Source of the DNA: Amphiscolops sp. MND2022
Taxonomy: Eukaryota
Direction of reading: 5' to 3'
DNA length: 64,000 bases
Assembly (NCBI GenBank): GCA_964187785.1
Contig: OZ076409.1
Span: forward strand, 18,788,001 to 18,852,000
Position numbers and translations under genes: made by a program. Of this stretch, positions 19,001 to 58,000 are shown piece after piece (position 1 is the first letter of the stretch; every line of letters begins with the position of its first letter). Below the pieces are notes generated by a model. It was not told the origin of the DNA. It saw only the letters and a list, made by a program, of their open reading frames with translations, and did not search any database.

Positions 19001-22000
19001 TTGAGTTTTTTGGGTATTGTAGAAGAGAATACGTGACACTTTGAAGTCCTTCTGCTATTTTCGAGCCTTGGACATTGCTTATGCAGCTCCCGACTTACGC
19101 CGTTTCCGGCTTGTTAAATTTCAAAATTGACTGAATTTTAACAATTACATAACCGATCATTTTGTTATGCCTAAGATCTGGTCTTTTTGTGGCGTCCCTG
19201 ATGTGTAGAGGGACACAATAATTAAGATAAAAGATTCTTAATTATTTTTGAGGAAATTAATTTTTATGGTAGTTGAAGCAGTTGTTGTTATTGGAAGCCA
19301 ATGTGATAAATCTTTGGTTTTCAAATGGTAGGTGTATGGTGATTTTGACATTTTGTGTAAAGTTTGAAAGATCTAGAATTCGATCTTGAGTCTCTTCGAA
19401 GATCTTGAAATGCTTCATTACCGCCCATATCCCATATGGAAAAAGAAACTAACCTCTCGAACGAGTTTTGCTTTCAAATTTGGCCATTAGCAATTTTTTA
19501 CTACAGAAATTGAGGTTTTTCCTCAATTGATTTCCTGAACAGATGAGGACAGCAAATTAGGTCCGTTACATGTATCCATGAAATGATTTAAATTTTTGAA
19601 TAAAAGTGCCTGAATTGAAAAAAGCTTTTTTTGAGGCATTTTGGGACGTTTTATGTATTTTACACTGTGATTAATGGTTCGATCAATTTATAGGCGAACT
19701 TACGGTTTCTACGAACTTTGGTGGGATGATTTGCGAAATTTCGGGCTGGAATTAGAATACTTTGTCTGCGTAACTATGTTTGATGCTTTTCTTCAAAAGT
19801 TTCAAGTGACCAGAGTTTGCAATAAATTGCATCCTAATATTTTGAAACATGAAACTTTTACCATGTTTTTATACACTTACTACACTTTTATGATTGAATG
19901 AAAATGATGATAAAAATGTCATTATTTATTTTCAAGTTCTTCATCGATAATTCGAAATTGATCGCTTCAATCAAAAACAATTCTTGTCAGGTGTTTTTCC
20001 CAACATTATTTGGCTTTACCATGTTTTGAATGGAGGGAGGAAAAAACAAGAAGGTGATTGCCAGAAGGTTCAAGTTGATTGTTTCAATTTGTTTATAGTT
20101 TATAGTTGCTACATGCTTATAGCCGCCTACCTGTGAGAAGTGATGACGATAGACCTTCCGTCCTCGCGCACCCTGGAGAGGACGTTCCACAGACGGCGTC
20201 TGGTTACGGGGTCCATGCCGCTAGAGGGCTCGTCCAGAAACACGACGGGAGGGGAGCCCATCAACGCGATTGCAGTGCTGATCTTACGCTTGTTGCCTCC
20301 ACTGAAATGCATCATCCCGAATATAGGAAAACTCGTCGAAAACAACTCGCCGAAAACAACTGGTCGAAAATACTAGGCGGAAAACTCGTCGAAAAACAAC
20401 TCGCCGAAATTTCTCCGGCGGAAAACTCGTCGCAAGAACAGATAATAATCTCAGGCAAATATAGTCCTAAATTATTATGAAGTACTGCACTGTAAACTAT
20501 AAAGTGAAACATTTCAAGCAATTATATAATTAAAAAGCTATTGTAGCAATGCGCTATTTCTAATTTAGTTCATTTTCCCAACAGAGGAAATTGACTCAGA
20601 GACATAATAATTTCCAAAGCGGAATTATTAGAGCATTTTAATTTCTAAGCGAATAGCAACGCGCTAAAAGGAAATTGCAATTCCCAAATTCCTTTAATGC
20701 TCAGCCAATAGGAAAAAGCCACGCGACAGTAGAACTGTCCTGAGCTGGAAAGAGAAATACAGGTACCCATTCCAACGCGGAACACTGAGAATTCACTCGC
20801 TCTCTTCTCTTCTCTTTCTTTCCTTACTTTGCTCTCTGACTTAAAACTCTCCCTTAAATTCAGCTGACAAAGAGTCCTGAATTTTAACTTAGAAATATTC
20901 TAAAGTCTGAAAAGCTCGACTTAGAAAATTATTCTATCTTATAAACACCCCACTTCTAATTTACCTTCACTTTATAACAATTTTTTGAGACTTATTGCAA
21001 AGTTAGAAAGCGAGTCCTAAGTAACTAAAATCACCGGTTTACAACATCTGGTGCGGCCAGAGCAAAGAACAAAATCACTCCGCAATTTGTACGACCATAA
21101 AACCGAGCGTACAAAATAAATCTCTTTTCCCTGTGGTGGGTCCTATTTTGCAAAACTGAAATATTTAAAGCAAATATTTCTGAGAAAATTCAAATTCTTG
21201 TTTTTGCAACACTTAGTATCTAAAGCAGATACTAAACAAAATTTCAATTTTTGCAACATTTAGTAATCTAAAGCAGATACTAAACAAAATTCATACTCTT
21301 GGTACTGAGTCTAAACAGTATCCACTAACGCTAACTTCGGTATTAGCGTGTGCGGGTTCCGTGGAAGAAATTTATTTCTGACACACGAGTGTTCCTTAAA
21401 TTGCACGATCCCAGCGAGGTTTCGCAAGAAATTGGAAAGTCCATATTTCACCTCGCCTGCTGCCTTGGAATCTAGCATTCCGTGTTAAGGCTTAAATACG
21501 CAGAAACTGTCCGTTTCAAAGGAGCAACAAAACTCCAAAAATATATATTTGCGAAAGGATCAAAGAGATTCCTTTGTGAACAATTTCTATATGTGTCTTG
21601 GAGCAAAGATACTTCTACACAAAAAACCAGTCTGTTATTGCCAGAAATAATAACAAAATTGTAAATTGTGAAAAAAAGGAGCAAAATAAACGTGATTAAA
21701 TAGACAAATGGCAAACACTGTAGCGTACCCTGACTTAGCATTAGAAAAATTCATTGGAATTGACTCAAGTGAAGATTCAACTGCCTTTATTCGTTTGTTA
21801 GAAAAGAAAATCAGCTTCTCGCTAGGAAGTAGACCTACGGCAAATGAGAACGGCCAACAAACCATTTATGACGACCGTAGAAAAGCACTTTTTGGATCAG
21901 TCCTACGCGGACCTGCGGCTGAGTGGTTTGATTCACTAGACGCTGCGTTAACAAGGGAAGAAATGAAAACACAGTTCATAAACAGGTTCACGGACGGAAA

Positions 22001-25000
22001 AATGCAATATAGATTCCGAATTGAGGCCGAGAATCTGAAAAGACAGCCTGATGAAAATATGGAAAGTTACATCCACAGAATAAAAACGTTGGTAGACAAA
22101 GGCTGGCCAACACCGTCAAATGCGAAAACAAGAGGCTATCACAGCATGCGAAAATCAGAGAATTGGGAAGTACAAAGACTACTTCATAAAAGGCTTAATG
22201 CCCCCGGGTCTTAAACAGAAAGCCCATCAAGCAATGATTGAAGATCCCAACAAATCATGGGACGCTTTACAGGCTCTTATCATAAATAAAGATATGAGTT
22301 TAGTTGTGAGTGCCGAAATGTCCGGCTTGCAACCTTCAAGTTCCCAAACTTTAACAGGGACAATGGACGCCCGTTTCACTAACATTGAATGAAATCACCA
22401 ACATGGTGAAAAATCATCAAATCAATGCTACCTATGACCCGAACAACCCAAAAATGAAACAAGACCTTACTAGATTTTGCAACTATTGCAAAAAATCCGG
22501 ACACACAATCAAGTACTGTTGGACCTTGAAAAAGAAGAAAGAAAACGAGGAAAAACCTCCTCCCCAACCAAAAGAAACATATGCGCAAAACTATCCAAGT
22601 CGACCCAAGTCTCCGAATAATAACACATCACAATCGGACAATCGGTCCAACGGCCAAAGAGGCAGAAGTAATAGTCCTTATGTTTCAAATGGCTATCGAA
22701 GCAGAAGTAACAGCTACTCTGGAGCTGTTCGGTTCGAAGCAAGGCCTGACAAGGTGAATTCTTTGTATGACACTCTGCAGTCATGCAATCCTTTAAACTA
22801 ATCAAGTCTCCGAATCAACAAAGTGAGGAATCAAATGAAACCCCTCACATTCCAACTGCTGGAACGTCCGGCCAACATTTTTATATAGAATTATTTCAAT
22901 ACGCCGTCGGAGACAAAAATAAAAATAATGGCCTTAGCACCCAATTTCTCATAGATACTGGCGCAACGTGCTCCATTATCAACCGTGAGACATTCACTGA
23001 GATTAACAAAATTCAGCCTTTAAATGTAACGCCTCTCGAGAAATCGCCTTTAGCTGCTAATGGACACGCAATGCCAATGAAAGGGAAAACTATTATTCAG
23101 TCTGCGTTTGACGTAGAATATTCTTGTGTGATCGAACACACTGTTTATGTGTCTGATTCCCCCGAGGCGAGAATGAACATTCTTGGAATGGATTTTTTGG
23201 CAAATTTTGGTGAATTCATTAACTTGAGAAATCCAATGCTAATTTTAACGGTCTTCCCCGGCAAATGTGTTAAACTGTCACCTTATTTAGACAAGCCTTT
23301 ACCCTACTTCTCCCAGGTTAATTCAGTAGAATTGACTCAAGACATTACAATTGCACCGTATTCGACCCGAGTTTTGAGTTTAATTGCTAGAGATGAAGAT
23401 AAACATTTGTTCAAACAGGGAACAAGTTTCCGTTTACACCAAGACATTTTAGATACTGGCATTTACACGTATCACGTGTATTGCTCACAAGACGAGTCGA
23501 AATATCCTTTAATGCTGAACAATCCGAACCCGAATAGTATTACTATTCGTAAAGGAATTCTTGGATACACATTGCTCGACAGCGTCCAAGAGACCTCGCA
23601 ATTGATGAGTGTCGTTGACAATGTCGCTTTCATTGAGTATCTCAAAACTTCTGAGTCTCAATGGAACAAGGATTTACACGTTTGTTCGACCGAACCGTAT
23701 ATTTATTCCTTAACGGAAATTGATTCACGGAAACAAATGGCCGAAAGCGCTATTTCGCAAAATGAACTGGCTACTGATTTCTCCAATGAGGTGAAATCAT
23801 TACAACCGAAAATGCCCAAAATTGCTTTCGATATTAAAAGGAAACAACTCGACGATGAATTTTACGCCGAGTTTAGTCCCGCCGAACGCAACTTTTTAGA
23901 AAAGTTCGACTTTTCTGAATCTGATATAAATGACCGTGAATTACAACATCTTCTCCGAGTTTTAGTTGAAAACAATGACGTGTTTTCAAAATTTACTTAT
24001 GATGTTGGAAAAATCACACAAGCATTTCATGTACAATTGAAGAAAAACGCCGAATTACGAAAACAAAGGCCCTCAAAAGTCCCTCTGCACTACAGAGACC
24101 GACTTGAAATTCTTCTGAATGAACTGCAACGAGCTGGAATCATTCGAGAAATGGGAAATGATGTGGAAATGGGTTCCCTATTCACAAACCCTATCATCAT
24201 TTTACCAAAAGGAGATACCGTGAAGCTTGTGATTGACGCACGTTATCTTAACTCAATCACTGACTTGACTAACTACTCATGGCCCCTTGAACCAGTACAA
24301 ATGTTACTGACACGACTTGATGGAGTTTATTACACAACGAGTGATTTAGCTTCCGCCTATAACCAAGTACCCCTCACCGAGGATACGAAGAAGTTGACAA
24401 GCTTTATTGTTGGTGGAAAACAGTACATGTTCGAACGAGGATTCTATGGTCTTTGCGGACTACCAAACTTCTTCAGTCGGATAATGACTATTCATTTCGC
24501 TGAAATGATAGCCAAGAAACAAGTGATAACATATATTGATGATGTTATCTTACAGGGAAAAACCAAACAAGAAATGTGGAATAATTTGGATTCATACTTC
24601 AAGTGCTTGAGATCATCAGGTCTGAAAGCTGCACCGAACAAAACAAAACTGTTCTTGAGGAAAGTTCAGTTTCTTGGACACATTGTTTCCGACAAAGGAA
24701 TCCAGCCAGTAGCCAAAAAGGTACAAGATTTGAAAAACCTGAAAAGCCCTGAGAACAAAAGAGATGTAATGCGCATCTTAGGAAGTTTAGGTTTCTACAG
24801 CACTGTCGAGCCCCACTGTGTGGGCCGGCTTTGAAGGACCTTTCGAAGTTGATTGTCGGTTTTCGGTGTCTGCCTTACTTATGACAGCCATCATTAAGTC
24901 CTTCAGTTGACTAAACTCATTTTGTAACTCGTTTATCTTTCTTTCATAACTCTCTTTTATTTCAGACAACTGAGACGAGATATCAGAAGTTTCGTTACTA

Positions 25001-40000: not shown

Positions 40001-43000
40001 TTTTCCAGCAACGTAAAATCTAAGTAAGACTTGCTTACGCACTGGGACTAAATTCCCGTTTGCTATTTGAATTTTGAAATTCGGAGGGGGGAATTCTTGA
40101 AGGATGGCTTCTGGATGAGCCGTTGTTATTTTTCGCAATTCGGCTTCAGACATTGCACTTTGTATTGCGCCTGTGTCTAAAAGTGCGCTGTTTTCGTATT
40201 TGTCAAACTGAAGAGGGACGTAAAGCATTTTATCTTTCTTGTTTAAATGTAAAGTGGGACTGAGAACGTGAATTTCTGTTTTAGTTGCATGTTTTTTAGC
40301 TTTTGAAACGTTAATACTACTCTGTTTTGCATGTTTTTTAATACTAAGCCGTTTGTCGATTGTTGAGTGTGAAGTCGAGTCGTCGTCTAGATGGGTGGTT
40401 TCCATCTCTTTGGCATCATCCACCTGCCTCATGGTGTTTGGTTGCCAGTTCATCGTTTGTTCATCGTTGATTTCAGCGAGTGGAGAAAAGCGGCTGCCGT
40501 TGAGTTGACGTGCATTTCCCATCGCTTTTTCATCGTTGGAAAGTCTTCGCTGATAGACGTCGTCAGCTTTTGGTCGTTTGTCCAGTGAAGGCTGCCATTT
40601 CTTCATTGGACGGTCGTGTGTAGTCGGTTGAGTCGAAAGTCGTTGGTTGCGCGTTGTATTTCTAGCGGGCGGAAATCGTGGCGGAATCAAAAACCCTGAT
40701 TTATGTCTTCATCAGAGTAGCTTTCTTGGTCTTCTTCTTCGGCAACTGCTTGCATAGGGTTCATCGGTTTTTGCTGTCGTTTTAAATCTTGTCTTCTAGT
40801 TTTGTTGTCTTCTTGTGAATTCGTTGCGTATGGAATCTTTCCATATGCAGAACTGCTTTCTTTAGGGACGCGTCGTCTGCAATCCCTTGCTGAGTGGCCT
40901 GTGTAACCGCAAATCTGGCAGACCAATTTTGGATTGTATTTCGGCTTATCTGGATCGGCTGCTTTCTTCATTGGGATTGCATCCTCCTTCTTTATGCCGT
41001 TCGCTTCGTCTCGTTGTCGGGCGCGACATTCCGTTTTGCGGTGTCCTGTCTTTCCGCAGTAAAAACATTGTCCCTCAAATCGTTTTCGTTCTGTCGGTTG
41101 CGTGGTCGTCGTTGTTGTTGTGGGCTTCGTCGTTGTAATCGTAGGTGGTGCTGAGGAGGTGACCGCGTTAAATGGTTGGATTGCCGTAGGTGGCGCGACG
41201 TACTGCTGGTACTGGTATTTTCGCATTAGGTAGGTTTTGATTTCCTCTGGGGAGCTCTCTTCTTTGTTTGCCATAGTGAGCTCTTGTTGAATCTCGACTG
41301 GCAGTTTTCCAAACAAGAACATTTTGATTATTCTGTCGGCCTCATTGCCGAAGGCTTGTTTGGCAGTCTTCTTGAGATTTTTGAGGAAATCTCCGAATGT
41401 TTCTGTTGTGGGATCATAGCGTGCTTGGTCCCATTTGTAACGGGCCACTTCCTTTAGATCCTCTTTTGCAAATTCTTTTCTGAAGAGGTCGAGTACATCC
41501 TTTAGTGTTGTCATTAGCGTTATCTGGATGGATTGCCAGTATTCTATTGCGTCATCTCTCAAAAGGCTTTGAAAGAAGTGTAGTTTGTTCTCCTCGGTGA
41601 TTTTGTTGGCAAGCGGGCTAAGGTGGTTGAGGAGAAGGTGCTCAAATTCGACGAATTTGTCTTTTTGGCCTCTGAAATTTGGCACGTGTGTCTGCAGAAG
41701 CTTCGTGTTGGTGGTTGTGTTTTTGATCCGTTGGGGGATCGTCTCGATTGCATTGAGTAGTCGTTCCTCATTGCTTCTGGGGGTTGATTCTCCCTCTTCG
41801 TCTGAGTCGTCTTCTTGGTATCTGCTGCAGTTGGTGAAGCTGGTTGTCGGGCGGGTGGAGCGGGTTTCTGTTGCTCCTGTCACCATGTCGAGCCCCACTG
41901 TGTGGGCCGGCTTTGAAGGACCTTTCGAAGTTGATTGTCGGTTTTCGGTGTCTGCCTTACTTATGACAGCCATCATTAAGTCCTTCAGTTGACTAAACTC
42001 ATTTTGTAACTCGTTTATCTTTCTTTCATAACTCTCTTTTATTTCAGACAACTGAGACGAGATATCAGAAGTTTCGTTACTATCGGAGTCATTGGCAGAG
42101 GACTGAGCCATGTCTGGATCCGTTGGAACAAGTGTTTCTAACGAGGAACTAATAATTCTTCCGCTTCTGAGTTCAGTGCCTAGATCTGGGTTCATAGAGA
42201 TGGGAGAAAAGAATTATGAGTGAAGACTGGATTATCTGAAATGTTATTGCGATGTATTTTTGCTATTTTATCTGATTTTACGATCTCTAATTCACTAAGT
42301 TTGAACAGAGATGTTTTATCGATGACTAGTACAAATAAACAAGTCGTAAAGAAAGTAGCAGGAAATTAGTAAGGTGAATAGGAAAGTTCATCCAATGTTC
42401 ATCGCAGTTGTAAGTGCGTCAAAAGAAATTACTCAGTTTTAGTATTATAGTTTCTGAAGATGAAAATGAGATGTATTTTCGAGTAAAATTCGACGTGGGG
42501 TGTTCAACTGGATAGTAGCTTGTCGCAATTTCGGTCTCAGTAATCGCTAATGGCGGTCCAAAATACAGCAGTTCACGTGTCTTTTCCGGCTGGTAAGACG
42601 CTAATCTCTTACCAGCCTCTTCTCATTGGCTGTTACCACTGGTGTTAAAATGGTAAGTCACGTGACCGGTGTTGTGAACTGCCGCAAAGTGGCCACGCAC
42701 CATGGCACATCTACATGTGTTAATGGCGTTTAGTCATCAATTTACAGTGTCGCAATTGCCTGCACATAACATCATGGTTTCTATAGTAATTAAAATGGAC
42801 TCAAATTATTCAATAACGCACAAATTTCAAGCAAATTTAGAGTAAAGCACACTTTGGGATGGGAAAACGATGTTTTCCGCTGATTCTAGCACCAAAATCA
42901 ATGATTTAAAACTCGAAGATGGAAATGCGATGAACTTGTAAGAATATTCGCTGATTTCCAAGTATAGTTTAGCTCTGGATGAAAATGCGATGAATGGTAG

Positions 43001-46000
43001 TCTTTCTCGCTCGGAAATCAACACTATTTGAAATGACGATGATAAAAGGATGAACTCTCTTCGAAATGAACGATTTCCAGCACAATTTAAATCGACGATG
43101 GTAAAAGGATGAACTCTCCTCGAAGATAGCTAATTTCCAGCACTAGTGAAAATAACGATGAATTCAGGATGAATTCAGTCGATAAAACAGGTGAAACAAC
43201 TAATTCTACAGTAAAGACAAATATACGATGACTTTAGGATGAATACATTCAATAAAACAGCAAAATCTAATGAATCGAATTCCAACGATGAGTTTAGGAT
43301 GAACTCAACTGAAAATTTGGCTAATTCTAGCGCAAGTTGAACTAGCGATGAATTTACGATGAACTTGTGTAATAAATCTGCCAAATGTAGTGCGAACTAA
43401 TTTTACAATGGACTAGTGATGAATTAGTCTAATAAAACAGATATCCAGCACTTCACTCTTTTTTAGGATGAATTAAGGATGTACTTTCTCATTTCTTATT
43501 GTTACTAGTCAGGACGATGAAATATAGATGTGTTATGCTCTTTTAAGAAATGAGAAGCATATTGAAGGTTAATAATCACAAAACGGCGATGAGTATGGGA
43601 TGGTTTTCATGCATTTTAAAGTCCCGTGAGATCCGCTGATGGATCATTAAATGAAATCAAATAAATGTCCCAATTTTTGTTCACCCGCAATCTTGGCGAT
43701 GTGATTGCGATGAACTTTGATAATATAGCACTGTAATTTCACTAGTAAGTCAAGCTGAAGGATCACTAAGTCCGCTGATGGATTAGTGATGAACTCTTTC
43801 TGAAATTCGTCACGACTACAAGCCCTGAGGCGGGGAGCTAGTAGAAGTTACAGGTTTCATTATTTCTACATCTCTCGGTCCAGTCTGACCGGAAAACTTC
43901 TCTCCCTTGTCGTGACAAACCAATATTGAATAAGATAGCACATTAAAGGCCATTGGCAAGATCATTTGTGCGGACACCGGAACTAGAGCGCTCAGTATTA
44001 AGTAAATATAAATAGCTCAAACTCAGGGGGGATAGGGATTAAGGTACAAGTAACGTAGGGTTGCTCACAACCATGGCTCTTATTATATGACATCATATTG
44101 CCCATATCTAAGTACATAAGACATAATATTTACATTACAGATATTTAGTAGATTATATTTCCATCATGCTGGCATGACAAGCACCTTCATCAAAAATCTA
44201 CATGTAGATTCGAAACCTTTCTACGAACTTCTGAGAGATGACACTCCATTCAAATGGACAAAAGAGCATGAGAACTTGTTCCAAGACATAAAAAATAGAA
44301 TCAGCGAAGAAACCATCTTAGCTGTACCAAACCCAAAGTATCCGTTCCACATCCATGTCGACTCCTCCAGTATTGGTACGGGATCAATCTTAATTCAAGA
44401 TTTTCCTTCCGGGAAACGTATAGTTTCCTTCAATTCGCGAGTCTTTACAAAGGATGAACAAAAGATGTCAACGCTACATCGAGAACTGTGCGGAATCATT
44501 TCTGCTCTACAAACGTATGAGCATTTAATAATTGGATCTCGGCATCCCATCAAGGTATTCTGTGATCACAAGCCCCTCCTGTATCTATGGGCACGCAAAG
44601 GAAGATTATCTCATAGATTCTTCCGCTACCAAGTGATTATCACTCAGTTCACTAATTTGCAAATCATTTGGACCCCTGGAACGAATTTAGTGTTTCCAGA
44701 TTTGCCGAGCAGGAATGTGTCGTTGAAAGATCTCAACGGTCACCAATTACTTCACAAAGAAATTCCAAAAGATATAAAGTTCTTCAGCCAAAGTGGACAC
44801 GAAGTTCAGTATCTGATAGACCACAACAGCCCTGCTGAAAGCGCCAATGATGATTTTTACCTAATTGTTTGCACTCACCTGGGTGAAACCAAGAAAATTC
44901 ACCTGAAAAATGATGGTACAGATCTTATTTGTACGGTATACGATCCAAACTCTCCGAAAGCGCTCTTTGATGTTTCTGACTCCTTCCGTGAAGGTAAGGA
45001 CATCAACATTCGACGTAAATGGCAAACCCCACCAATGGTTGTGGAAGCCGAAGTTCAGGAAAATCATTATTCCGAAATTGACTCCGAAACTGACAATAGT
45101 GACAATGAGGCTTCTGACGAAGATCCTGTATTGAACACAGAGGTTGTAAATGCATCTAAAGAAGATGTTCCTTTCATCCTCTCCATTTTCACCATTCAAG
45201 ACTCACTACAACCATTGAAACTCGTTACCGATAATCTAGATTTAAACAAAATTTTGGCAAACCAACAGGATGACCCAGTCCTGAACACTGCTAAATCATG
45301 GATAATTAAAGGCAAAGTGCCGTCAAAAGATGTTGAGTCCCGACAATGCAAAAGATTACTCGGTTATTCAAATCAATTTGAAAAATTGTTCATTGACGAA
45401 GAAACACAACTTGTTTGTAAAACTAGCAAGCATTCATCACGACAAATATGTCTGCCCCGCAACTGTTTCATTGAAGCTTTCAATGTTGCACACGATCATC
45501 GGCTTTCAGGACATCCAGGATGTGAAAAGACACTTTCGTCTCTGAAAAGATTTTTCTATTGGCCTGGTATGTACAAATGGGTAAGGACTCTAACGAAGAG
45601 CTGCCTGATCTGCCGAAAAAATAAACAAATCAGAAAGGATCAAAACACCGCTCCCAACGAAAAATGGGGAGAAGAAATTCCTTATCCCTTCCACACTGTT
45701 CACATTGACCTTAAAGGACCTTTGAATTCCATGAGTGACGGAAAACATCACTGTTTAGTTGTGATTGACGCATTCTCACGATTCATACAAGTTTACCCAG
45801 TCAAGTCGACTGATGCAAGTAATACTATTGAAGCCATGACTTCTTTCATTACTTCATTTGGTATTCCTCAAAAACTTGTATATGATAGAGGTACGTCGTT
45901 CATGAGCACTGATTTCTCAACCTTTCTCTTGGATTTAGGCATAACGCATGCCCCAAGAACTAAATGGTCCCCTTGGACTAACGGCAAGGTTGAAATCCAA

Positions 46001-49000
46001 AACAAACACCTCACTCGATACTTTCGATGCTATCTTTCCGAAGCAGGAAATAATTGGGCCAAGCTGGCTCCTCAATTCGCCTTTGCTCATAACACTTCAG
46101 TGAACGCCAGTACAGGAGCAACTCCCTATGAAGTTGTTTTCGGATTTAAACCACAAATTCCGATTTCGTTGAAACTAGGTCTCGTAAGAGACGACAATGA
46201 TTTGTGTCAATCCGAATTCTGTCAGTCTTTACCTGACCATTCACACATGAATAAAGACACGAATCATTCTTGCATTGACTCCTTACTGACGTCAAAATGT
46301 TCGTTGGATTTGTTACACAGAGAAACACAATTCAAAAACATATACAGAAAAGTATATACCAAAGTTCGTAAAGCGAATCATCGATCTCTGCCGTACCGAA
46401 ACAAGTACAAACTCGCTAAACCATTACGAGTTGGACAAAAAGTACTACTCGAAAATCATCAAGTCCCATTCGGGAAATCACAAAAGTTGTGCGAGCTCCG
46501 AAGTGGACCGTACACTGTGACTAAAGTGATCACGAAAGTGAACTACCAAGTCGCGCTCGATTCGGATCCAACGAGGATTCAAGTCGTTCATCGTAATCAT
46601 CTCGTTGAATTCTTCCCTCGTGACAATGATTTACCGACTTTATTGTCCAATTACGAAAAGCCTGTCAACGACGACAGAACCGAACATTTTTACAACGAGT
46701 ATGCAAAGAATCGACTCTCCGAATTGAACAAACCAATTGAAACGCTTGCTGAACGACAGCACGTACAAGAATACTTACCTATTTTTCCCGACGCTCCTGG
46801 TCCATCCAGGATGAACACGACTTATAGTTCGCCTGCTAAATGCGGCTCTGCTCATTCGACACCGAATTTCTTAGCGAGCTCCCCCGACTCTGGCATCCCG
46901 CAGTCATCTCCTCAAACCCCTATTTCATTTCAAGGAGAATCGCCAGCAATAACCAGTCAGCCAATCACACCTAGTCCTTTGCCTCGCACTTTTAGTACTA
47001 ACCCAAACAATATTACTTCAAATAGCACTGCCGCTGCTCCACGCTCAAGAAACACTGGAACGTTACGAAACATTCCTAGAGAGTGGTACGGAAAGCCTTA
47101 TTTCTAATATTATTATCATTTCTCTTTTTCTACTCTCTCTCGCCAAATCATTCCAAACAAATCCTATGCAAAGCGCATTTGTATAACTTTCTACTGTTTC
47201 TATCTCTATTTATACAAGATGTTTTATTTTATTCTTTTCCTTTTTCCTTTTTCTTGTGCAAGTGATGACTTTGACAATGTGTCAAAGAACTTGTTTGTAT
47301 CTCATTACGATTGCACAAAAATGCAAGACAATCGAATGTACTCCCTGAATAAGGTAGCAGAATGCAAGATTACACCAGAAAACTTGTATGTCACGCCGGC
47401 TACTATCACACTTTATCAGAAGAACTACCGGACTGACCTGGCAGCAACAATGTGTTCTGTCAAGGCCCATGTCTTCCGCTACAATTGTGGAATGTTTTCG
47501 CATTCGTCCTACGTTCATACTCAAAATAGTATAACGTATGACCTCATCGTTACCCCTGAAATGTGCCGACAGGCATCAAAGACGAACAAAATTAAAATTT
47601 CGTCTTTTAGCGAAAACTTCGATGCCCCAATTGAATTCGATACAAAGAAACAATCGAATTTCAATGATGGACAATCAGTCCGCACAACCATTCATTGCTC
47701 AAGTGGTCAAGTACAGCACTATACCTTCGAGACGTTCATGCAACGTGTGAATTTGACATTCGATTACGCAACCAAAGAGGTTTCCAATCCAAATAAACAA
47801 AAATTGCCATGTCTTTTAATGGAGGGTGGTTGCGAGACCACTACTTTAGACCCATTCGCTTACACGTGGGATACTCCCGAAAACTGCGTGATGACAAAAA
47901 TCCTCACTCAGGAAGCAAAAATGCTTAAGTATCCATTGTCAACGAACAGAAACGAAAACCAATTTTTCCTAATCAGCGAATATAATGAGACTGGCAAAGG
48001 AATGAACCTCAAAATAAAAGTCTTCCCTGAAAGCTATGAGCTATGTGGGAAACCTGAACGATTGTTCAAAACAAATTTTGAGAGTCTATTTGTGACTTAC
48101 CAAGGAGGTTTCGCAATGCCAGGTGGAGAACTACGAACTAAAGAACATGCTTTTAACGCCTACCAATTTTCCATTGACAACTCTAGCCAGGTCTCTTATT
48201 CGTCATTATCTTTCAGCAAATCAAATGGCCAATGGATTGGTGCACAGCCTTGGCATACCGTCGGCGCGGATGAAATTGATTATGAATTGCACTTGGGAAC
48301 AAAGTTAGACTATATAATGTACTTCAATGCGAAGCAATTGAGGCATTCTGAAATGACACTTCTGCAGAGTCAATGCGAACTCGAACGAACTCAAATGTTA
48401 ACTATTTTAATGTTAGCAATGCAAAACACAAGACTTGCCGGTTACATGTTAACTGGAAACAGGTCTATGTTCCTTGACACCGATGGAAGTGTCGCATGGT
48501 TATACCATTGTCCGAAGTTTTTGTCGCCCTTGAAAGTGCTTGATAAATGTTATGATCGAATCCCGATCATGTTTGAACGGTCTACGAACTTTGTAGATCC
48601 TATCACCCGTCAGACTTATGATTTTGCATCCGAGATACCCTGTTTGGGAGATTACACAAATGTGTTTCAACTTGATCTCGAAAATGACAATTCCTGGTAC
48701 CAACTTTTACCTGAGCCCATGCCTTTCAATAAACCTTTGTTGTTCAAGCCAACTGAACTTGGACATATTACTCAGTTTCCAACTTTCGACACCAGGCGTG
48801 CTGGAATGTACACCCCAAATCAAATGAAAAATTTTTGGGATAATGTAAATGATAGACTTCTGTTGGATCACTTGTTGACGCCTTCTTTTTTCGTCGATAA
48901 ATTCAAGGAAACTTTTGGTGAATTGGGATATATTATCCAATGTTTAGGAAACTTTTTTGCTTGTTTCCTTTTGGTAAAGTTCGTTATTGATGTTGTTGTC

Positions 49001-52000
49001 ATCGTCCTGCGAGGACTTGAAATTCGAAAAGTTTCTGGTGCCACTTTTGGTTTTGTCAGAACTATGTTAGGCGCAACTTTTAATTTATTTGTTCTCTCAC
49101 TTCAGACTCCAATGTACGAAAATGAGGAAAATAAAAGGATTTCAAATGGTTTCTCGCAGAACCCTGCAGGCAATAGACCTATAGCTGCACCAATGTACGA
49201 AGAAAATCCGACACTTTTGTATCCTGAAGTACATCTCTTGAACAATCCGATTGCGATTGGTTCTACTCTTAATGAAAGACAAAGAGCTGACTCAAATGTA
49301 TTAAATCAAACAGGAAATGCTCCTAGTACATTAAATACCTTTTTACAAAATAACAATGGCAATAACAGTTCTGGAAATGCTCCGACTACTGTCAAAGAAA
49401 ATGCTCCTAGTACCTCAAATAACAACAGTAATGGAAATGCTCCATTACCCCCACCATAAAGTTTACAAAAAACGTTTACTCTTTAGTGAAATTTCTCTTA
49501 CTTAAAAGTGATAAGGCTTCTTGGAATAGATACCACTGTGATTGTTGATGTTTTTCTTCTGGTCACAAACATAATGACACAAGCACAAATTGACTTACAA
49601 ACCCTATATAACTCGCTTTCTAAAACTTAGTACAGTCGCCAACTACTTAACCTCAAGCCTAATACCAACTATTTATTCTCCAGTTACTCCACTTATCCAG
49701 TTCTCTTGCTTTTGATATTCACTTTTAATAATCAACTACAAATATAATTCATAATGTCGGATGCTATTGACTTGTTCGAACCTGAAGGTTTTATCCCCAA
49801 CGACTTACGCCCCCCTAATGTCAACTTCCGATCACGAAAAACTAAGCGGGTAAAGCCCTGATTCCCCAAACCCTTCAGGCAGGCTAACAAAAGAATAGCC
49901 TCTGAAGCTCCTGAGCCAAATTGGCCGAAAAAGACATCCAAATTGGAAAATGATATGAACTTAGACCCTAACCGCCTGTCAAAGAGACTCGGTGATGGAA
50001 AAATTAAAGGCCCCTCGTGCGTGTCAATGAGACTCGACGACGGGTTACCCAAAGAAAAAAATTGGTTTCCAAGCCTTAAAGAAAGACTTGATATCCAAAA
50101 GTCCCGAGAGACAAATATAGATACAGACGACCCAAAATTCATTAAATTCCTGAAGTATGGTATAAGGAAGGACCATAATGAATGGTTCCTTGCCACACCT
50201 AAACAAGGAATTGAACTTGTTAACAAGAAGTTGAATTGTTCCATTGTCATTCCCCCTGAACGCTGCCCCGCTATAAACATTAATCTACCGAAGGAAATGA
50301 ATCAATGGAGACTAAAAGATCGTCTTCCCGAAGAAAGGAAGTACGTAATCTACAACCATCAAATTGATTCTCTAATTAAAGCCCCCTTTGGTGTAATCAC
50401 CGCGTTTCCTGACGACCCAAACCCCCTGTTTAACGACAACGCCAGTACTTGTAGCTCGTCAATCAGTACACCAGCTTCCAAGAAATCACATCATGATAAC
50501 TCCCAAATCTCACACAACAAACAACCAACAGTCAATGCGACTACACAAACAAAAAATGAAGAGTGGATAGACACACCTGATACCAATCTTACCGCTGCAC
50601 TCTGGAAAACTGAATTCGCAATTGCCGAATTTGAACAGCAAAACCGTAGTCTGAATATCGAACTAGCCAACTTAAAGAATGCCCTTTGCTCTGCCAATCG
50701 ATCACGAGCAATGGCTAAAGAGAATGCAACTCGAGCAGAATTTAAGTTAGAGATCTCCGAAAGAGTAACATCAGACCTTTTCGATGAGAACAAGGAACTG
50801 AAGAGCCAAATTGAAGAAGCGACCTCCAAAGCGGAGTCACTTACAAGTCAACTCTTGGAGTCCAACAAAAGAAACATTCTTCTCAAAGAAAAACTTGATG
50901 CCTTCGATGAGGCAAATAAACAGTTCAAGGAGATCCTTGATAAAAAGGACACCAGGCTCAAAGACCAAGCTAACATCGACAAATTGATCAAACAACTGCA
51001 AATAATGAGAGTCGAGATTGACATTCAACGTGCAGAGGCTATCCAGTTAATCCAAGCAGTAGATGGGAAACAATATGAAAAATTAGAAAAATGCCTACAC
51101 GCCTTGTTAACCCATGCAGACCACTGGGATTGGCAACAGTATGAGAAGTATTCCATATTTAACCTAAAACGAGGAAATGTAAAAGCCAGACTATCAACTG
51201 TATTACTACCCCATCGCCTATAACTTCGACAAGGATCCAGAATGGAAAACCAAATGCACTAGACTACCCTGGCCTGTCAACACGAAACAAGTCCCAACTG
51301 GCAAAAATCACTAAAAGCCCCTATAAACTGCTCTTCAACAAAAACTGAAACTCTTTTAACATGATAATTTGCTTAAACATATTTAACTTTTAAAATTTCT
51401 TTACCTTAACGTAAACTTTACATAAAGCTTTACCCATTATTCATTATATCCATTTTATAACCATTATACCCATTAATTGATTTTGGTATTACGACTAATG
51501 CAGTCTTCTCTGTCAACTGGGGTGAGTTGTAGCAATGCGTTATTTCTAATTTAGTTCATTTTCCCAACAGAGGAAATTGACTCAGAGACATAATAATTTC
51601 CAAAGCGGAATTATTAGAGCATTTTAATTTCTAAGCGAATAGCAACGCGCTAAAAGGAAATTGCAATTCCCAAATTCCTTTAATGCTCAGCCAATAGGAA
51701 AAAGCCACGCGACAGTAGAACTGTCCTGAGCTGGAAAGAGAAATACAGGTACCCATTCCAACGCGGAACACTGAGAATTCACTCGCTCTCTTCTCTTCTC
51801 TTTCTTTCCTTACTTTGCTCTCTGACTTAAAACTCTCCCTTAAATTCAGCTGACAAAGAGTCCTGAATTTTAACTTAGAAAAATTCTAAAGTCTGAAAAG
51901 CTCGACTTAGAAAATTATTCTATCTTATAAACACCCCACTTCTAATTTACCTTCACTTTATAACAATTTTTTGAGACTTATTGCAAAGTTAGAAAACGAG

Positions 52001-55000
52001 TCCTAAGTAACTAAAATCACCGGTTTACAACACTATATTATGCGTAAAACTGAAAATTTCACGCATCAATCAAGGAAAATTAATCCATTATTAGCACTGT
52101 GGGTAATCTCTAATTATTCGACGAGTTTGCAGTCAATTGTTATTCGGCGAGTTAATTTTCGACCAGTTTTCCGCCTTTTTTTCGACGAGTTGTTTTCGAC
52201 GAGTTGCATTCGGCGAGTTGTTTTCGACGAGTTTTCCGTATACCAATCATCCCATATGACTCATCACTTCTTTCCAAACTTGTTATATAAAAAAGCTACA
52301 AAAGGCTTTCGGAAAAAAACCGAGACGAGTTCGTATATTTGAATAAATGGTTGGTCTTCGTGACAGTCGCCAAAAAATCACCTCTTGGATTTTTTGTATT
52401 AAAAGTTATGATAGTGTTTCAGGTCACAGAGTCTCACAGCTTTTGTTGAATGAAACCTTTGTCAGATGAAAGTTTTTCACAGTTTCTCGTCAAGAGAGTC
52501 TAGAAAGCTGACTATCACAGTTGTTTTTAGTCGGCGCCTTTTCCTTTAAGGAAAAAAGCCCGACTATTACAGTGGCTAGTTTTTTTTTCTTTTTTTTCGT
52601 CAGGCCACAGAGCTCATCGCGTATGTACCACTTTTTACAGAAACTGATAAGACTACTCAGGCCAAGTCAGGCCAATAGAAACTTAGTGCAAAGGGTCCCC
52701 CTTTCATTTTTTACCTTTTTTACGTAACCTACAAAACCGGAAGAGACCAAAGGGTCCCCCTTTTCATTTTTCGGCACTGTGCGACATTTTCGAAGTTTTT
52801 TTTCAAAAAAAAATTTTCAAAAAAAATTTCAAATTTTGTTCCCGGTCGGGAAACAGTGATTTTCCAGTCATATCGAGCATGAAAGGCACATTTTGGGTGT
52901 CTCGAAAGTGTTTTCAAAGCTTTTCATGAATACGTCCTGAGAATATTTAGAAAACTTTGCGCTTCTTGAGCCTTAGATATAGCGCCGACTTCAGACGTTC
53001 CCGTCTTGTTTGTCATGCGTCTTCCGTTTTTGAGCTTTGAGAGGGGCCCTTGTTATATGCTGTTGATCCGATATGACCTCTACCGATTATCGGTCTAGAA
53101 ACAATAGACGGTACCAGAAAACTGGTGACAAACATTATTGTATATTGTCAATGCTTTGTGTTTTGTATTTCTGCATTGATTTTTGTATAGAACCGGTTGC
53201 CATTAAAAGAAAGTTACTGTAGTGAATTCAGTTTTCTTAATTCTAGTCTTAGAATACAATAGCCCAGACGTTCAGAGTTTACTTTTGCTATCATGTTACA
53301 AGTTTTCTCGCAATAAGCCTGGTAACTTATGAAACATGAATCTAGTTCTTATAGCAGAAGTGGGGTACCTGTAGGTGCCGACTTGTCTGTCCTTGTACAC
53401 AGTTAGCTGCAGTGCCTCCATCAACTCCTGAACGATGACGTCAATCTTGTTTTCTGGCACCCCCCGAATCCGGGCGTACATCTCCAGGGTCTCCGTACCA
53501 GTCATGTTCTCTATAATGGCGTCGAATTGAGGGCAGTACCCCATGCGTTGTCTCGCCTGAAACATGTCTTGTCTGTCACCAACCAACCTGATCAAACTTT
53601 CCTTTCTTTGCTACATTTCTTTGCTCTCCCTGAGAACTTTCGATTAATCTCGTCGATCTTGGAAAGATTTCCAGTAAGTTTTGGTAATCTTCCGTTATTT
53701 CCACATTGCCAAAATAACGAACGCTGGCAATTGCCATAAGTAATGTACCCATTATTTTACTGGGTTTGGTTCGTTTTTTTTTCAATCGTGAACGACGAAA
53801 AAGAATTAATCATTTCGATATGGAGTCACCAACTTTTAAAATAATTATAGCACTGTGCCATATTATGAGTTTTAGATGACAATGGTGATAGCTTCACCAA
53901 TATCTAAAAGTAAAAAAACCCACACATTCACCAATTTTGCATCCTTAGACCACATTTTAGGTTTAACTGAGTGATTTCAAGACTGAGAGAGTGGTCCACA
54001 CTCTAAGTTTTCGGCAAAAGGTCACTACTAGCAAAACGGCTAAGTTTCGGAAATTACCCTTGTTTAAAAAAATATCTCTAAATGGCCGCTCAATTGTGCC
54101 TTCCCGGACTTGTTTTCAAACAATGCTCTTAAAAAGTCTTAGAATATTACCCAGGATTGCCGCAGATGGATATATTTTGATACAGGAGAGCAATGTTCTA
54201 GTGACTAAAAACTTTCGCTGCAGTGGAAACTAACCCTGACAATGTTGCTTCGTATATTGACATTGTCAATGAAAGCAGTTCCCTCGTCAATCATTAGATC
54301 CCCGGTCAACATGTTGAACGTCGTGCTTTTACCTGGAGAATGAAAAATTCATAAATTAGTTTTCACATCTTCAACTAAAAAGGGAAAAACGATTGAGTTT
54401 AGCTAAAAACAGCATCTTTTCAGGTCACTGAAAGTTCTCAGACGCTCACGTACTACTTAAAACCTTCAAAACTTTCAATAATGACGTACAAGATGGAAAA
54501 ATCTATATTTTCTAGAGAAACTCGTTTTTCCTTGATAATTCTGTTTACTTAATTAGAAATCGTGGCCAGTACGTACCAATGTTTTCTCTTCCAAACAGTT
54601 GCAATTTGAAGTATATTATATCAACAAGACACCTCCTGGGCACTGTGATAATCTCCGCTCCAACTAGTTTAGTTTAAAAAAACTCGAGAAAATTGAAAAA
54701 TTTCACACTTTTTCATTCATCTCATTCCTTCTGTTTGAACAAAACTGCAAGCTTCTTCATGCAAAAGCAAGCTAATTAGCTGTAAAGAATGTTATTGAAC
54801 TCTGTTGATATGCATATCAACGAAACGTCCAAAAATTCAAACCGAATTGCATAAAACAGTCAAAAATTGAGAAAATTGAGAAAAATTGAATTACATAATT
54901 CAATGTTATGTAATGTTATGTAATGTTAAAAAAAAGGAAAAATGTTCCTTTCCCCAATTTCACGGGTTGGACGCCGAATAAAGCAGTTCTGCTTTTCTGA

Positions 55001-58000
55001 GTCTGCCTGTTTCAGACGCTATCTTCCCAGCGCTTTAAATTGCTTTAAATCATAATTCCGACTCCTAAAAATTGAGATAAAGCCAAGTTACGACCCCCTC
55101 AACGTTCCGGAAGTTAAAGGGGCCGCATAAATTCATAAAACAACATTGTTCCTTGTATATATAAAATTTTCAGAATTTTTCATTCAAGAATTTATGTCTT
55201 GATAATTAGGGCCAAGAAGTACAGTATTTACCTAGAATTGCTTGACTGTAATCATTCATTAAATACTCGCGAATTACGCTTCAGAGCATGATTACGCTGT
55301 GAAAGCTTTATTGTGAACAACGATGACGAGAAAAGGAAACAGAATGTTATTTTCGTGAATCGGTAAAAAAATGCAGTGTACACTGCAGTTATGACTCACC
55401 GGCTCCATTGACACCCAGTAACCCAAAGCACTCCCCTTTGGCGACACCGGCGTATAGTCCATGCACAGCTTTCATCACAGGAGCTCCAAACGTATTTCGG
55501 TACGTCTTCTTTATCCCTAAAAAATTGAAAGTTTTCGAGGTTGTTGCTTTTAACATGAATTTCAACGTGATTAAAGTTGGTTTTCCATGAAAACGGGGAG
55601 GTTTTAGATGTTAAATAGCTCATCGATGTTGCTATTGGAGCCCACGCCTTTATGTCTTGAAGCATGGCTCTGACAAATTAATGCACAATTTGAGTACAGA
55701 AGATAAAGTCGTTTTTGAAATGAAAGCATTTCTTTGAATTTAGCTTACACCATGGCTCTAAACTTTTTGTTAAAAAACGACTTCGTATATATTATTATAT
55801 TTATTATATTTATATATTATATTTATATTTATATTATATATTAGAAATAATGTATTGTGTATTTTTATTAACAGCAGAAATCATGCTTAGAAACAACTGT
55901 TAAGATCATTTTTTAAAATCTTTTCGAAGTTTGTACTACCCTAAATGAAAGTAATTTAGTTTTTCACATATTTCATAGGTTGCCAAATGTTTTCATCAAG
56001 ACATACCCAAGTTATTACAATAAAAGTTTCTTTATACATTATTACCATCAAGTAGGTTAGATGGGAAGTCTATTTTCGAACGTTCTAACCTTGAATGACG
56101 AGAACGTCGTTGGAGTTGTTTCCCGAGAGAATTCGGTTCTTCTCGTCCACTATGTCGACATCTTCGGCATTCTCATTCATCTCTTCCGACAATTGGCTCT
56201 TTCGTTTGCACTGAAAACAAAATTTATAGATGTGCCCTTTAGGGAAGCCATCCAATTGTTGAGATATCTTATTCATAAACAAGTCGAGAACAGCTCCTAG
56301 TCGGAGCAAAAAATTGGACAGTAGTGAGAATCGACCTCCGTTCGCTTGCTTGAAAAGTCAATGTTCCAACCACTTGATAAACTGCAAAATCTAGTCCAAC
56401 TTTCATATCATCCGCCGCCCTATCCGTTTCGTCGTGTTAGTGTCTGCTTTGGAAAAAAAGGCGTACCAAAAAAAGCCGACTGAAAAAAAACGTATTCTAA
56501 GTTATAAGTATAACTTTCAATAGACTTTTTTTGGCTCATATTTGAGGGTTGCTTCCAAGATTAATTATCTTGACCATGCTTTTATCAGGGAACGACTTTT
56601 AATCTTTTCCTGATATCATATTGGCTGCAGGTTTGCTAAACCCCCAGCGAAATTGCGGAAACTTGATGACTGTTGGTTGAAGTAACAGAGAAAAGGGCTT
56701 TGTATAAAGCATTTAAGGATCATTATTTCTGCTATGAAAATATGTTGAATGTTTAACTTTGCTTTGTAAGAAAAGATCAGTTTTTGCTGAAAAATTTAAA
56801 GGAAAATTTTTTAAAATAAAAAGGAACACCATTGTCGTCTGTCTATACATGAGGTCATAACGTGTAACTACTCACATAGCAGCATACGAGACAGCAAAGA
56901 TCTCTCATCAAAGACATTCCACCGAACTCCACTAGGAACACTATGGCCCAGAACATGAGCCCATCGATGAGAAGGAAAGCGACAAATCTCCCAATTCCTG
57001 GCTCTTTGAACCGAATGTAATCCAGCTCATCCAGTCCTGCAGAAAATCAATCGTTTTGAAATATTGTTGAAAAGAAGAAACAAAGGTCTCGTTTCATTAA
57101 CTTAATGGCTGATGAATTTTCTCAGTAATGTCTCAGTTTTCGAATAGATTCAAGGTTTCAGGTTGCTTAACCTGTTAGAAAACTTGTTAGGTTAACTTGT
57201 TTCGGTTAACCGATTAAGAATATTTTAACCTTGTCAAGCTCTACTGGAAACTGAAAGCGGAAGTATGGCATTTTTACCATTTTATGGGTACGTTATGTTC
57301 AGACCAGCGTTCGCAGGTTGACCGACCATCACAGGTTGTTTTCGGCGTTTGATTCATTATTTAGACTTTGCTTTGACTTATTTTTAGTCGGCGCTTTTCT
57401 AGAGAAAAGTGCCCGACACTTACAATGGCTAGTTTTTTTTCTTTTCGTTTTTCGTCAGACTACAATCTCACTCTGATTGGGCCACTTTTCTTACAATCGA
57501 AACTACAAAAACTACTAGCATAAGGCCGAGTCCGGTCAGCGGAAATTAGTGCAAAAGGGTCCCCCCTTTCATATTTTACTATTTTACCGTAGCCTACAAA
57601 ACCGGACGAGACTAAAGGGTCCCCCCTTACATTTTTTTTTTCGGCATTGTGCGACTTTTTTTCAAAAATTTTTTAATGTATCAAAAGCGTCCCCCTTTCG
57701 AGTTTTTGATATTTTGCAACAAAATATATGTTGATGAAGCCCAAAGGGTCCCCCCTTTTACATTTTTCGGCACTATGCCACTATTTCTGAAAGAAAAAAT
57801 ATTCAAAAATTTTTTTGAAAAATTTTTTTTGCGCTTCTTGAGCCTTAGATATAGCGCCGACTTTAGACGTTCCCGTCTTGTTCTTTTTTGTCGGAAATCA
57901 GTAGGTTACGATTCCAATTACATAAGGAATCATGCATCCATACTGGTCATAGATAATTCATCCAATTCGAATGAAAATTTCGATCAGAAGTCCTAGATTT

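What the first reader, a model, noticed from the sequence alone, without database searches (positions are those of the whole stretch)
47219..49459. Gypsy element with a chuvirus-like (class III) envelope glycoprotein
Seen: open 746-aa ORF after pol with signal peptide, YDC/CGMFSH cysteine motifs and a TM anchor; no obvious furin site plus fusion peptide. Established: insect errantiviruses use baculovirus F-type Env, and chuvirus-like glycoproteins are known in BEL/Pao elements. Inference: an invertebrate endogenous retrovirus-like lineage that acquired a class III fusogen independently of errantiviruses and may be, or have been, infectious.
Basis: partly seen in the sequence, partly recalled or inferred. 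Interest (0 to 1): 0.75.

Follow-up and report, generated by a model that had tools for sequence, protein, structure and literature searches.

The report
Broken gB-type enveloped Gypsy retrotransposon
This is a broken copy of an animal Gypsy retrotransposon whose envelope gene encodes a protein predicted to fold like herpesvirus gB and chuvirus fusion proteins, a combination already published for many animal groups; the only unusual part is a conserved extra gene after the envelope gene that likely helps the element express or move its RNA.

Summary
Window 47219-49459 is an open 746-aa env after a Gypsy pol. It hits Pfam PF24664 (E 4.7e-35). Predicted structures match herpesvirus gB in the PDB and chu-, xinmo- and qin-virus glycoproteins among viral models. 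No furin motif is present.

It is not a new kind. Chary & Hayashi (eLife 2026) list 221 Gypsy elements with gB-type env, including 114 found with chuvirus-like baits, and one carries the same CGMF-SHSS motif.

- env lacks 38 residues that all 12 sisters compared have, in the predicted C-terminal arm;
- gag has two frameshifts;
- pol is split by a nested 19.4-kb element;
- the fourth gene has a stop and a frameshift.

The family itself looks recently active: the LTRs are 99.4% identical, and 7 of 15 listed cluster members are full length. One feature I did not find described is a conserved ~510-aa coiled-coil gene after env, also present twice in a distant relative. The host lineage was not determined and infectivity is untested.

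Verdict: new member of a known kind, interest 0.3.

The parts
20542..21046 (+). 5' LTR of the env-bearing Gypsy element (505 bp, TG...CA), preceded by target-site duplication CTAT
   Evidence: 3 differences from the 3' LTR in 506 aligned bases
21049..21060 (+). Primer-binding-site-like TGG motif just after the 5' LTR; the tRNA was not identified
   Evidence: no match in the published PBS table
21696..22801 (+). gag, broken into three reading frames by two frameshifts (near 22130-22180 and 22345-22360)
   Evidence: PF03732; tblastn with the L001 gag hits frames 3, 1 and 2
22771..24803 (+). pol, 5' part (protease, reverse transcriptase), overlapping the gag end at a TTTAAAC heptamer (candidate -1 frameshift site); cut by the nested element
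   Evidence: same heptamer at the same place in L001
24804..44179 (-). Nested, unrelated Gypsy element (19.4 kb; 2294-bp LTRs with 7 differences; TSD AGCAC; gag 40687-42213, pol 36239-40708 and a tail at 35596-36255; no env found) that interrupts the outer pol
   Evidence: its pol is only 25-28% identical to the outer pol
44180..47107 (+). pol, 3' part (RNase H, H2C2 zinc finger, integrase, Tf2-like SH3), stop-free
47219..49459 (+). env: class III (gB/chuvirus-type) fusion glycoprotein, 746 aa, with an in-frame 38-residue deletion near residue 541-543 (about window 48845)
49754..51311 (+). ORF4: conserved accessory gene (sisters 496-519 aa; basic N-terminus, long predicted coiled coil, no transmembrane stretch, no Pfam family); broken here by a stop at codon 36 and a frameshift near the end; end coordinate approximate
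51528..52032 (+). 3' LTR, preceded by a short purine-rich tract and followed by TSD CTAT
20133..20306 (-). Host ABCA-transporter exon on one side; the whole element lies antisense in the intron between this exon and the one at 53371-53598
   Evidence: consecutive segments 13-88 and 88-145 of P0477
53371..53598 (-). Host ABCA-transporter exon on the other side of the element

Best explanation
This is a broken copy of a Gypsy LTR retrotransposon with the gene order gag-pol-env-ORF4, whose env is predicted to be a class III (gB/chuvirus-type) membrane-fusion protein that in full-length sister copies likely lets particles enter other cells of the host, probably reaching the germline. Shown: the LTRs, target-site duplication, Gypsy-type pol domains, the PF24664 match, conservation of 14 ectodomain cysteines, and lesions in all four genes of this copy. 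Predicted: a gB-like fold with PH-like domains, a central helix (residues 355-400), a crown domain and a C-terminal arm. Inferred from other class III fusogens (established knowledge, recalled): a trimer that needs no furin cleavage, inserts internal loops into the target membrane and is probably triggered by endosomal acid. Also inferred: Gag-Pol is made by -1 frameshifting, and env and ORF4 come from subgenomic RNA. The 38-residue deletion removes much of the predicted arm, so this copy's Env likely cannot fuse. ORF4 is most likely a soluble, oligomeric, probably nuclear regulator of the element's RNA, working like Rev or CERV (about 30%).
For: PF24664 E 4.7e-35 here and 5.5e-40 in a full-length sister. 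The atlas's top clusters are PF24664, gB and rhabdovirus G at 0.93-0.96. Foldseek against the PDB: HSV gB E 7e-10 for this copy and 5e-14 for the sister; every row shown is gB, GP64 or Dhori Gp. Foldseek against viral models: chu-, xinmo- and qin-virus G at E 2e-20 to 6e-17. VIA: HSV gB Z 9.5 (430 aligned, rmsd 19.4, model 27-561 to gB 111-719) and pseudorabies gB domain IV Z 8.5 (156 aligned, rmsd 3.6). The 14 cysteines are kept in at least 94% of covered rows among 76 long relatives. Between this element and L001, env (46%) is as conserved as gag (44-47%) and pol (44-58%), which points to long joint descent under constraint. 7 of 15 listed members of this 35-member cluster are 783-784 aa, and those compared are 98-99% identical to this copy. 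LTRs are 99.4% identical. Arm mutations reduce gB fusion (PMC5433099, abstract and passages).
Against: There is no functional or expression evidence. Whole-chain TM-scores to gB are low (0.10-0.24) and rmsd is high, so only the domain folds match, not the arrangement. The model of this copy is weak (pLDDT 55) and the sister's is moderate (73). The putative fusion loops are polar in many family members (position 93 is His in 24 and Phe in 14 of 70 rows), which is unusual for a membrane-inserting loop. The atlas recognition score (1536) was below its reliable range. Only env, not gag or pol, was seen full length in sisters. Some lesions could be assembly errors. ORF4's role rests on analogy only.
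Confidence: 0.85

Rival explanations
1. A recent, independent capture of a chuvirus glycoprotein gene by this Gypsy lineage, as proposed for the mosquito BEL/Pao element Anakin.
For: The best structural matches among viral models are chu-, xinmo- and qin-virus glycoproteins, about ten orders of magnitude better than herpes gB. The precedent is in PMC7642597 (abstract).
Against: Identity to those viral proteins is only 13-16%. No relative was confirmed in viral contigs (0 of 61 pattern matches). Env diversity within the family is deep and matches gag/pol divergence. The same SHSS motif occurs in 12 published Gypsy env rows, from insects and a planarian.
Confidence: 0.12
2. Env is retained but is no longer used for infection: it serves as a restriction or cell-fusion helper, or is a passenger, while the element spreads inside cells.
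For: This copy is young by its LTRs yet has a deleted env. Many cluster members are fragments (8 of 15 listed are shorter than 783 aa). The putative fusion loops are polar.
Against: Cysteines and core domains are conserved across many subfamilies only 35-50% identical. Env sits inside LTRs beside pol here, and beside gag and pol in L001.
Confidence: 0.15
3. The lesions in this copy are assembly errors and the real locus is intact apart from the nested insertion.
For: The frameshifts in gag and ORF4 could be long-read indel errors, and many database members are truncated.
Against: A clean 38-codon in-frame deletion and a nested element with its own target-site duplication are not typical read errors. 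The LTR pairs agree at 99.4-99.7% with no indels, which argues for good base accuracy.
Confidence: 0.07

Closest known systems
HSV/gB-type 'errantiviruses' (Ty3/gypsy + class III env; Chary & Hayashi, eLife 2026, PMC13524379)
   Same: Gypsy pol followed by a gB-fold env with signal peptide, transmembrane anchor, conserved cysteines and no obligatory furin site; multicopy. CG(x)xSHSS occurs in their Insecta_C1 rows (exactly CGMF-SHSS in Ajap_errantivirus_1) and in planarian Smed_errantivirus_2.
   Different: A distinct sequence lineage: family motifs AYTW, EGGC, TLDP and DHSS were absent from their domain I-II table. It carries a conserved fourth gene after env, not found in the sections read. 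The order is gag-pol-env, unlike their planarian, nematode and bryozoan elements (gag-env-pol). This copy would fail their intactness filter.
Anakin: mosquito BEL/Pao elements with chuvirus glycoprotein (Dezordi et al. 2020, PMC7642597)
   Same: An LTR element carrying a chuvirus-like class III glycoprotein.
   Different: The pol here has Gypsy-type Pfam domains (Retrotrans_gag, Integrase_H2C2, SH3_Tf2-1) and no BEL/Pao-specific family was listed.
Glycoproteins G of Chuviridae, Xinmoviridae and qin-like viruses (Pfam PF24664)
   Same: Above the curated cut-off; best structural matches.
   Different: 13-16% identity; encoded in a retroelement, with no RNA-virus genes found nearby.
Insect F-type errantiviruses (gypsy, ZAM) and Oikopleura Tor elements (PMC4402516)
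   Same: gag-pol-env layout; proposed soma-to-germline spread.
   Different: Their Env is furin-cleaved (Tor: passages). No Rx[KR]R was found in 0 of 76 long relatives here.
CERV of C. elegans Cer1 (PMC10309623)
   Same: An accessory non-membrane protein of a Gypsy element that exports genomic RNA; a functional analogy for ORF4.
   Different: No homology was tested. CERV comes from a spliced mRNA of Cer1; ORF4 is a separate gene after env.

Membership tests
Ty3/Gypsy (Metaviridae) | Paired LTRs (TG...CA) with target-site duplication, PBS and purine tract | tested here: met
   the PBS tRNA was not identified
Ty3/Gypsy (Metaviridae) | pol order PR-RT-RH-IN with Gypsy-type domains | tested here: met
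   gag-asp_proteas, RVT_1, RT_RNaseH_2, Integrase_H2C2, rve, SH3_Tf2-1; same in L001
Ty3/Gypsy (Metaviridae) | RT phylogeny within Metaviridae against named references | not tested
   no named reference RT sequences were available through the tools
HSV/gB-type errantivirus (Chary & Hayashi, operational definition) | env next to Gypsy pol with class III (gB-like) fold | tested here: met
HSV/gB-type errantivirus (Chary & Hayashi, operational definition) | Ectodomain between a signal peptide and a transmembrane anchor, with conserved cysteine bridges | tested here: met
   signal peptide judged by eye, disulfide pairing not read from the model
HSV/gB-type errantivirus (Chary & Hayashi, operational definition) | Uninterrupted gag, pol and env in one copy (their inclusion filter for 'intact' elements) | tested here: not met
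   this copy is broken, so it is a defective member of the lineage, not an 'intact' element; full-length env exists in sisters; L001 has open gag and env but a frameshifted pol
HSV/gB-type errantivirus (Chary & Hayashi, operational definition) | Multiple near-identical genomic copies | tested here: inconclusive
   35-member cluster, 10 members compared are 98-99% identical, but whether they lie in one genome is not shown; no genome is held
HSV/gB-type errantivirus (Chary & Hayashi, operational definition) | Placement in the 'ancient errantivirus' pol clade; RNase H + mini-domain bridge | not testable with these tools
   their pol sequences are on GitHub, not in the held supplements
Anakin (BEL/Pao + chuvirus G) | BEL/Pao-type gag and pol | tested here: not met
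   one search gives Gypsy-type domains and no BEL/Pao-specific family at E up to 0.1
PF24664 Monjiviricetes fusion glycoproteins | Score above the curated cut-off | tested here: met
   121 bits vs 27; 8 of 8 relatives tested also pass
Chuviridae glycoprotein specifically | Nested within chuvirus G in a tree | tested here: inconclusive
   chu-, xinmo- and qin-like G score alike; no tree with viral references was built
F-type (class I) errantivirus env | Furin site followed by a hydrophobic fusion peptide | tested here: not met
   no RxxR in this protein; Rx[KR]R in 0 of 76 long relatives
F-type (class I) errantivirus env | Class I fold | tested here: inconclusive
   best matches are class III; lists show only top rows
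Infectious endogenous retrovirus | Env-dependent cell-to-cell transmission | not testable with these tools
   needs experiments

The most novel reading that the evidence does not exclude
A very large, recently active radiation of 'complex' invertebrate endogenous retroviruses (gag-pol-class III env plus a dedicated, previously undescribed accessory protein, ORF4, duplicated in some lineages) in an animal group not yet surveyed, spreading to the germline with a stand-alone gB-type fusogen and a Rev-like regulator.
Probability: 0.3. Interest if true: 0.6.

Novelty: new member of a known kind. Interest (0 to 1): 0.3.

Why it matters
The env-plus-Gypsy combination is published, so this adds a lineage, not a concept. 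Two things keep some value. How gB-type Env of retrotransposons enters cells without herpesvirus helper proteins is stated as unknown in PMC13524379 (Discussion), and this family offers many diverged, apparently full-length versions (4143 member sequences, fragments included, in the 25 clusters tallied). The conserved fourth gene suggests a complex-retrovirus-like organisation that I did not find described for these elements. If it regulates RNA export or counters silencing, it would be a new accessory-protein family.

Tried and rejected
Sequence search of the PDB found nothing for env: 0 hits for the single protein and one chance portal-protein hit at E 0.98 for the profile.

Viral contigs: 61 pattern matches, none confirmed. 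No whole genome is held. No sequencing run was listed, which is no evidence on expression.

Host lineage was not determined. An ABCA exon is 84% identical to one unnamed protein and 46-48% to named fish ABCA1. From memory the sequence style suggested an acoel; this is an untested guess. I only checked that six xenacoelomorph names are absent from the eLife supplements and from the genome groups listed.

ORF4: no Pfam hit above noise, no atlas hit at 0.9 or above, one weak PDB coiled-coil hit. An ORF4-like match after env in L002 is inconclusive (E 0.07), and none was seen in L003 or L006. No LTR pair was found in L001, so it is not shown to be a complete element.

The motif search was uninformative because that supplement holds only domains I-II.

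No class I fusogen or host non-fusogen appeared among the top structural rows. In one search the non-fusogen rows were helix or PH-domain matches at Z 5.5 or lower.

Literature searches for a fourth gene after env in such elements found none. The search listing counts two uses of 'accessory' in the longer version of PMC13524379 that were not in the text I could read.

Four of five look-ups of earlier scan notes returned nothing.

Rejected: BEL/Pao identity, F-type env, and the idea that the 44120-47107 frame is a stand-alone pol (it is the 3' half of a split gene).
Full report
Observation. The frame at 47219-49459 is open, 746 aa long, and starts 112 bases after the pol stop. It has a short hydrophobic N-terminus (judged by eye), a transmembrane stretch at 566-607, five N-glycosylation sequons in the ectodomain and no RxxR motif. 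It matches Pfam PF24664, Monjiviricetes fusion glycoprotein, at E 4.7e-35. A protein search gave 227 relatives among 2866 candidates, and all 120 listed carry PF24664. A profile of 55 relatives found 2942 proteins at E up to 0.001, of which 323 at 1e-30.

Anatomy. The gene belongs to a 31.5-kb nested structure. The outer element has 505-bp LTRs at 20542-21046 and 51528-52032 (TG...CA, 3 differences, target-site duplication CTAT), a PBS-like motif and a purine tract. It reads gag, pol, env and ORF4 on the + strand and would span about 12.1 kb on its own. It lies antisense in an intron of a host ABCA-transporter gene, between consecutive exons at 53371-53598 and 20133-20306. Its pol carries Gypsy-type domains in the order PR-RT-RH-IN. 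An unrelated 19.4-kb Gypsy element with 2294-bp LTRs (7 differences, TSD AGCAC) has inserted into that pol on the opposite strand; the two pols share only 25-28% identity.

This copy is broken in every gene. Gag is in three frames. Pol is split by the nested element. ORF4 has a stop at codon 36 and a frameshift near its end. Env lacks 38 residues near position 541-543 that are present in 14 of 14 aligned relatives and 12 of 12 sisters compared pairwise. Of 71 long relatives spanning the site, 70 have 30-50 residues there. In the model of a natural full-length sister, the missing stretch covers the second half of helix 533-562 and the following linker. The structural alignment to HSV gB ends at model 561 and gB 719, so this helix likely corresponds to gB's C-terminal arm, where point mutations impair fusion (PMC5433099, abstract and passages). 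I infer that this copy's Env is unlikely to work. The family is another matter: this env's cluster has 35 members; 7 of the 15 listed are 783-784 aa, and the 10 compared are 98-99% identical to this copy. With near-identical LTRs, that indicates recent activity. Whether these copies lie in one genome, and whether any has all genes open, could not be checked because no genome is held.

Fold. The model of this copy was weak (pLDDT 55), yet Foldseek returned herpesvirus gB first (E 7e-10) and only gB, GP64 and Dhori glycoprotein in the rows shown. Among viral models the best ten were at E 2e-20 to 6e-17, mostly chu-, xinmo- and qin-like glycoproteins at 13-16% identity, and the first herpes gB was at rank 16. 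The sister's model (120-row alignment, pLDDT 73) gave HSV gB at E 5e-14. In the VIA search of 48,161 chains it gave HSV gB Z 9.5 (430 aligned, rmsd 19.4), pseudorabies gB domain IV Z 8.5 (156 aligned, rmsd 3.6), Chandipura G Z 5.7 and Bourbon Gp Z 5.6. Whole-chain TM-scores are low (0.10-0.24), so the domains match but their arrangement is not resolved. Fourteen ectodomain cysteines are almost invariant among 76 long relatives, and none of the 76 has Rx[KR]R before the anchor. Against simple expectations, the putative fusion loops are fairly polar in much of the family.

Related loci. A metagenome scan gave 6 loci from 59 pattern matches. L001 (13.2 kb) has gag, pol, env and two ORF4-like genes in the same order. 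Its identity to this element is 46% for env, 44-47% for gag, 44-58% for pol and 28-34% for ORF4 segments. Env has therefore diverged in step with gag and pol. A tree of 54 long relatives shows many deep subfamilies; the 25 clusters tallied hold 4143 member sequences, fragments included (FastTree, no viral references, long branches unreliable).

ORF4. A search gave 136 relatives among 8000 scored candidates, with full-length forms of 496-519 aa at 58-98% identity. By eye, seven contig lengths are shared between env and ORF4 hits, an indirect sign of linkage. A profile built without L001 finds both L001 genes (E 2e-7, 7e-6 and 8e-13 for three fragments among 1659; L002 only E 0.07). The two L001 genes are 35% identical to each other. 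ORF4 has a basic N-terminus and no hydrophobic stretch, only weak coiled-coil-type Pfam matches, and no atlas hit at 0.9 or above. My best guess (about 30%) is a nuclear, oligomeric regulator of the element's RNA, by analogy with CERV of Cer1 (PMC10309623, abstract). Alternatives are an anti-silencing protein or a particle-associated scaffold.

How it likely works. Shown: structure of the element, family membership of env, conservation, and lesions. Predicted: class III fold. Inferred: Gag-Pol by -1 frameshift at a TTTAAAC heptamer shared with L001; env and ORF4 from subgenomic RNA, by splicing or an internal promoter as in Tor elements (PMC4402516, abstract and passages); a trimeric, uncleaved, probably acid-triggered fusogen (recalled general knowledge of class III proteins) that carries particles from somatic cells to the germline. 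None of the functional steps is tested.

What is known. Chary & Hayashi (PMC13524379) describe 1512 env-carrying Ty3/gypsy elements, 221 of them HSV/gB-type, across most animal phyla. [quoted passage not shown] I read the abstract, sections 5 (part 1 of 2), 6, 8, 9 (part 1 of 2), 13, 14 and 22, further passages, parts of supplements 1 and 2 and searches in all seven supplements, but not the GitHub sequences. Other family motifs (AYTW, EGGC, TLDP, DHSS) were absent, so this is a distinct lineage of the same kind. Anakin (PMC7642597, abstract; PMC12440569, passages) is the BEL/Pao counterpart. Extra ORFs in LTR elements are known in general (PMC5408684, passages). I found no description of a conserved gene after a gB-type env; subscription papers and bioRxiv supplements were out of reach. 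PMC10084718 was seen only as a search listing. The host was not identified; xenacoelomorphs, my recalled and untested guess, are not in the published survey.

Verdict. It works like, and by gene content belongs to, the HSV/gB-type errantiviruses, as a broken copy of a new lineage. Interest 0.3. The most novel reading, a complex four-gene lineage in an unsurveyed animal group, has probability about 0.3 and would deserve 0.6.

Noticed in passing
window 28840-32959 (+): The nested Gypsy element carries four long frames (420, 224, 202 and 354 aa) on the strand opposite to its gag-pol, with no Pfam hit; 30278-30952 has a CxxC...HxxxxH pattern resembling a BED/U1-type zinc finger (by eye). Possibly antisense accessory genes.
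   Followed up: partly
window 40687-42213 (-), LTR edge at 41886: The nested element's gag frame begins inside its 2.3-kb 5' LTR (first Met at 42195) and reads through the primer-binding site, so each LTR contains the start of gag.
   Followed up: partly
window 24804-27097 and 41886-44179: Unusually long LTRs (2294 bp) containing a triple 59-60 bp repeat (family D5).
   Followed up: no
L001:9651-12095: Two tandem ORF4-like genes after env in a distant relative, 35% identical to each other.
   Followed up: partly
window 22791-22799 and L001 about 1728-1736: A TTTAAAC heptamer at the gag/pol overlap in both elements: candidate -1 frameshift site.
   Followed up: partly
window 12891-61425 (-): Host ABCA-transporter gene with short exons and one 33-kb intron filled by the nested elements.
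   Followed up: partly
window 62234-62973 (+): Fragments resembling a Tc1/mariner transposase (by eye), next to an array of about 17-bp repeats with inverted arms at 63345-64000.
   Followed up: no
window 7972-8466, 52521-53016, 57378-57888, 13631-13745, 18884-18965: A dispersed non-coding repeat family of up to about 500 bp, 69-80% identical, in the host gene's introns.
   Followed up: no
window 1453-2203 and 5750-6495: A 750-bp direct repeat, 93% identical, 4.3 kb apart; possibly the LTRs of another decayed element.
   Followed up: no
L002:2541-3490, L003:2868-3356: Further frames directly after env in two more distant relatives; the L002 one weakly resembles ORF4 (E 0.07) and a second L002 frame looks as if it has a signal peptide.
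   Followed up: partly
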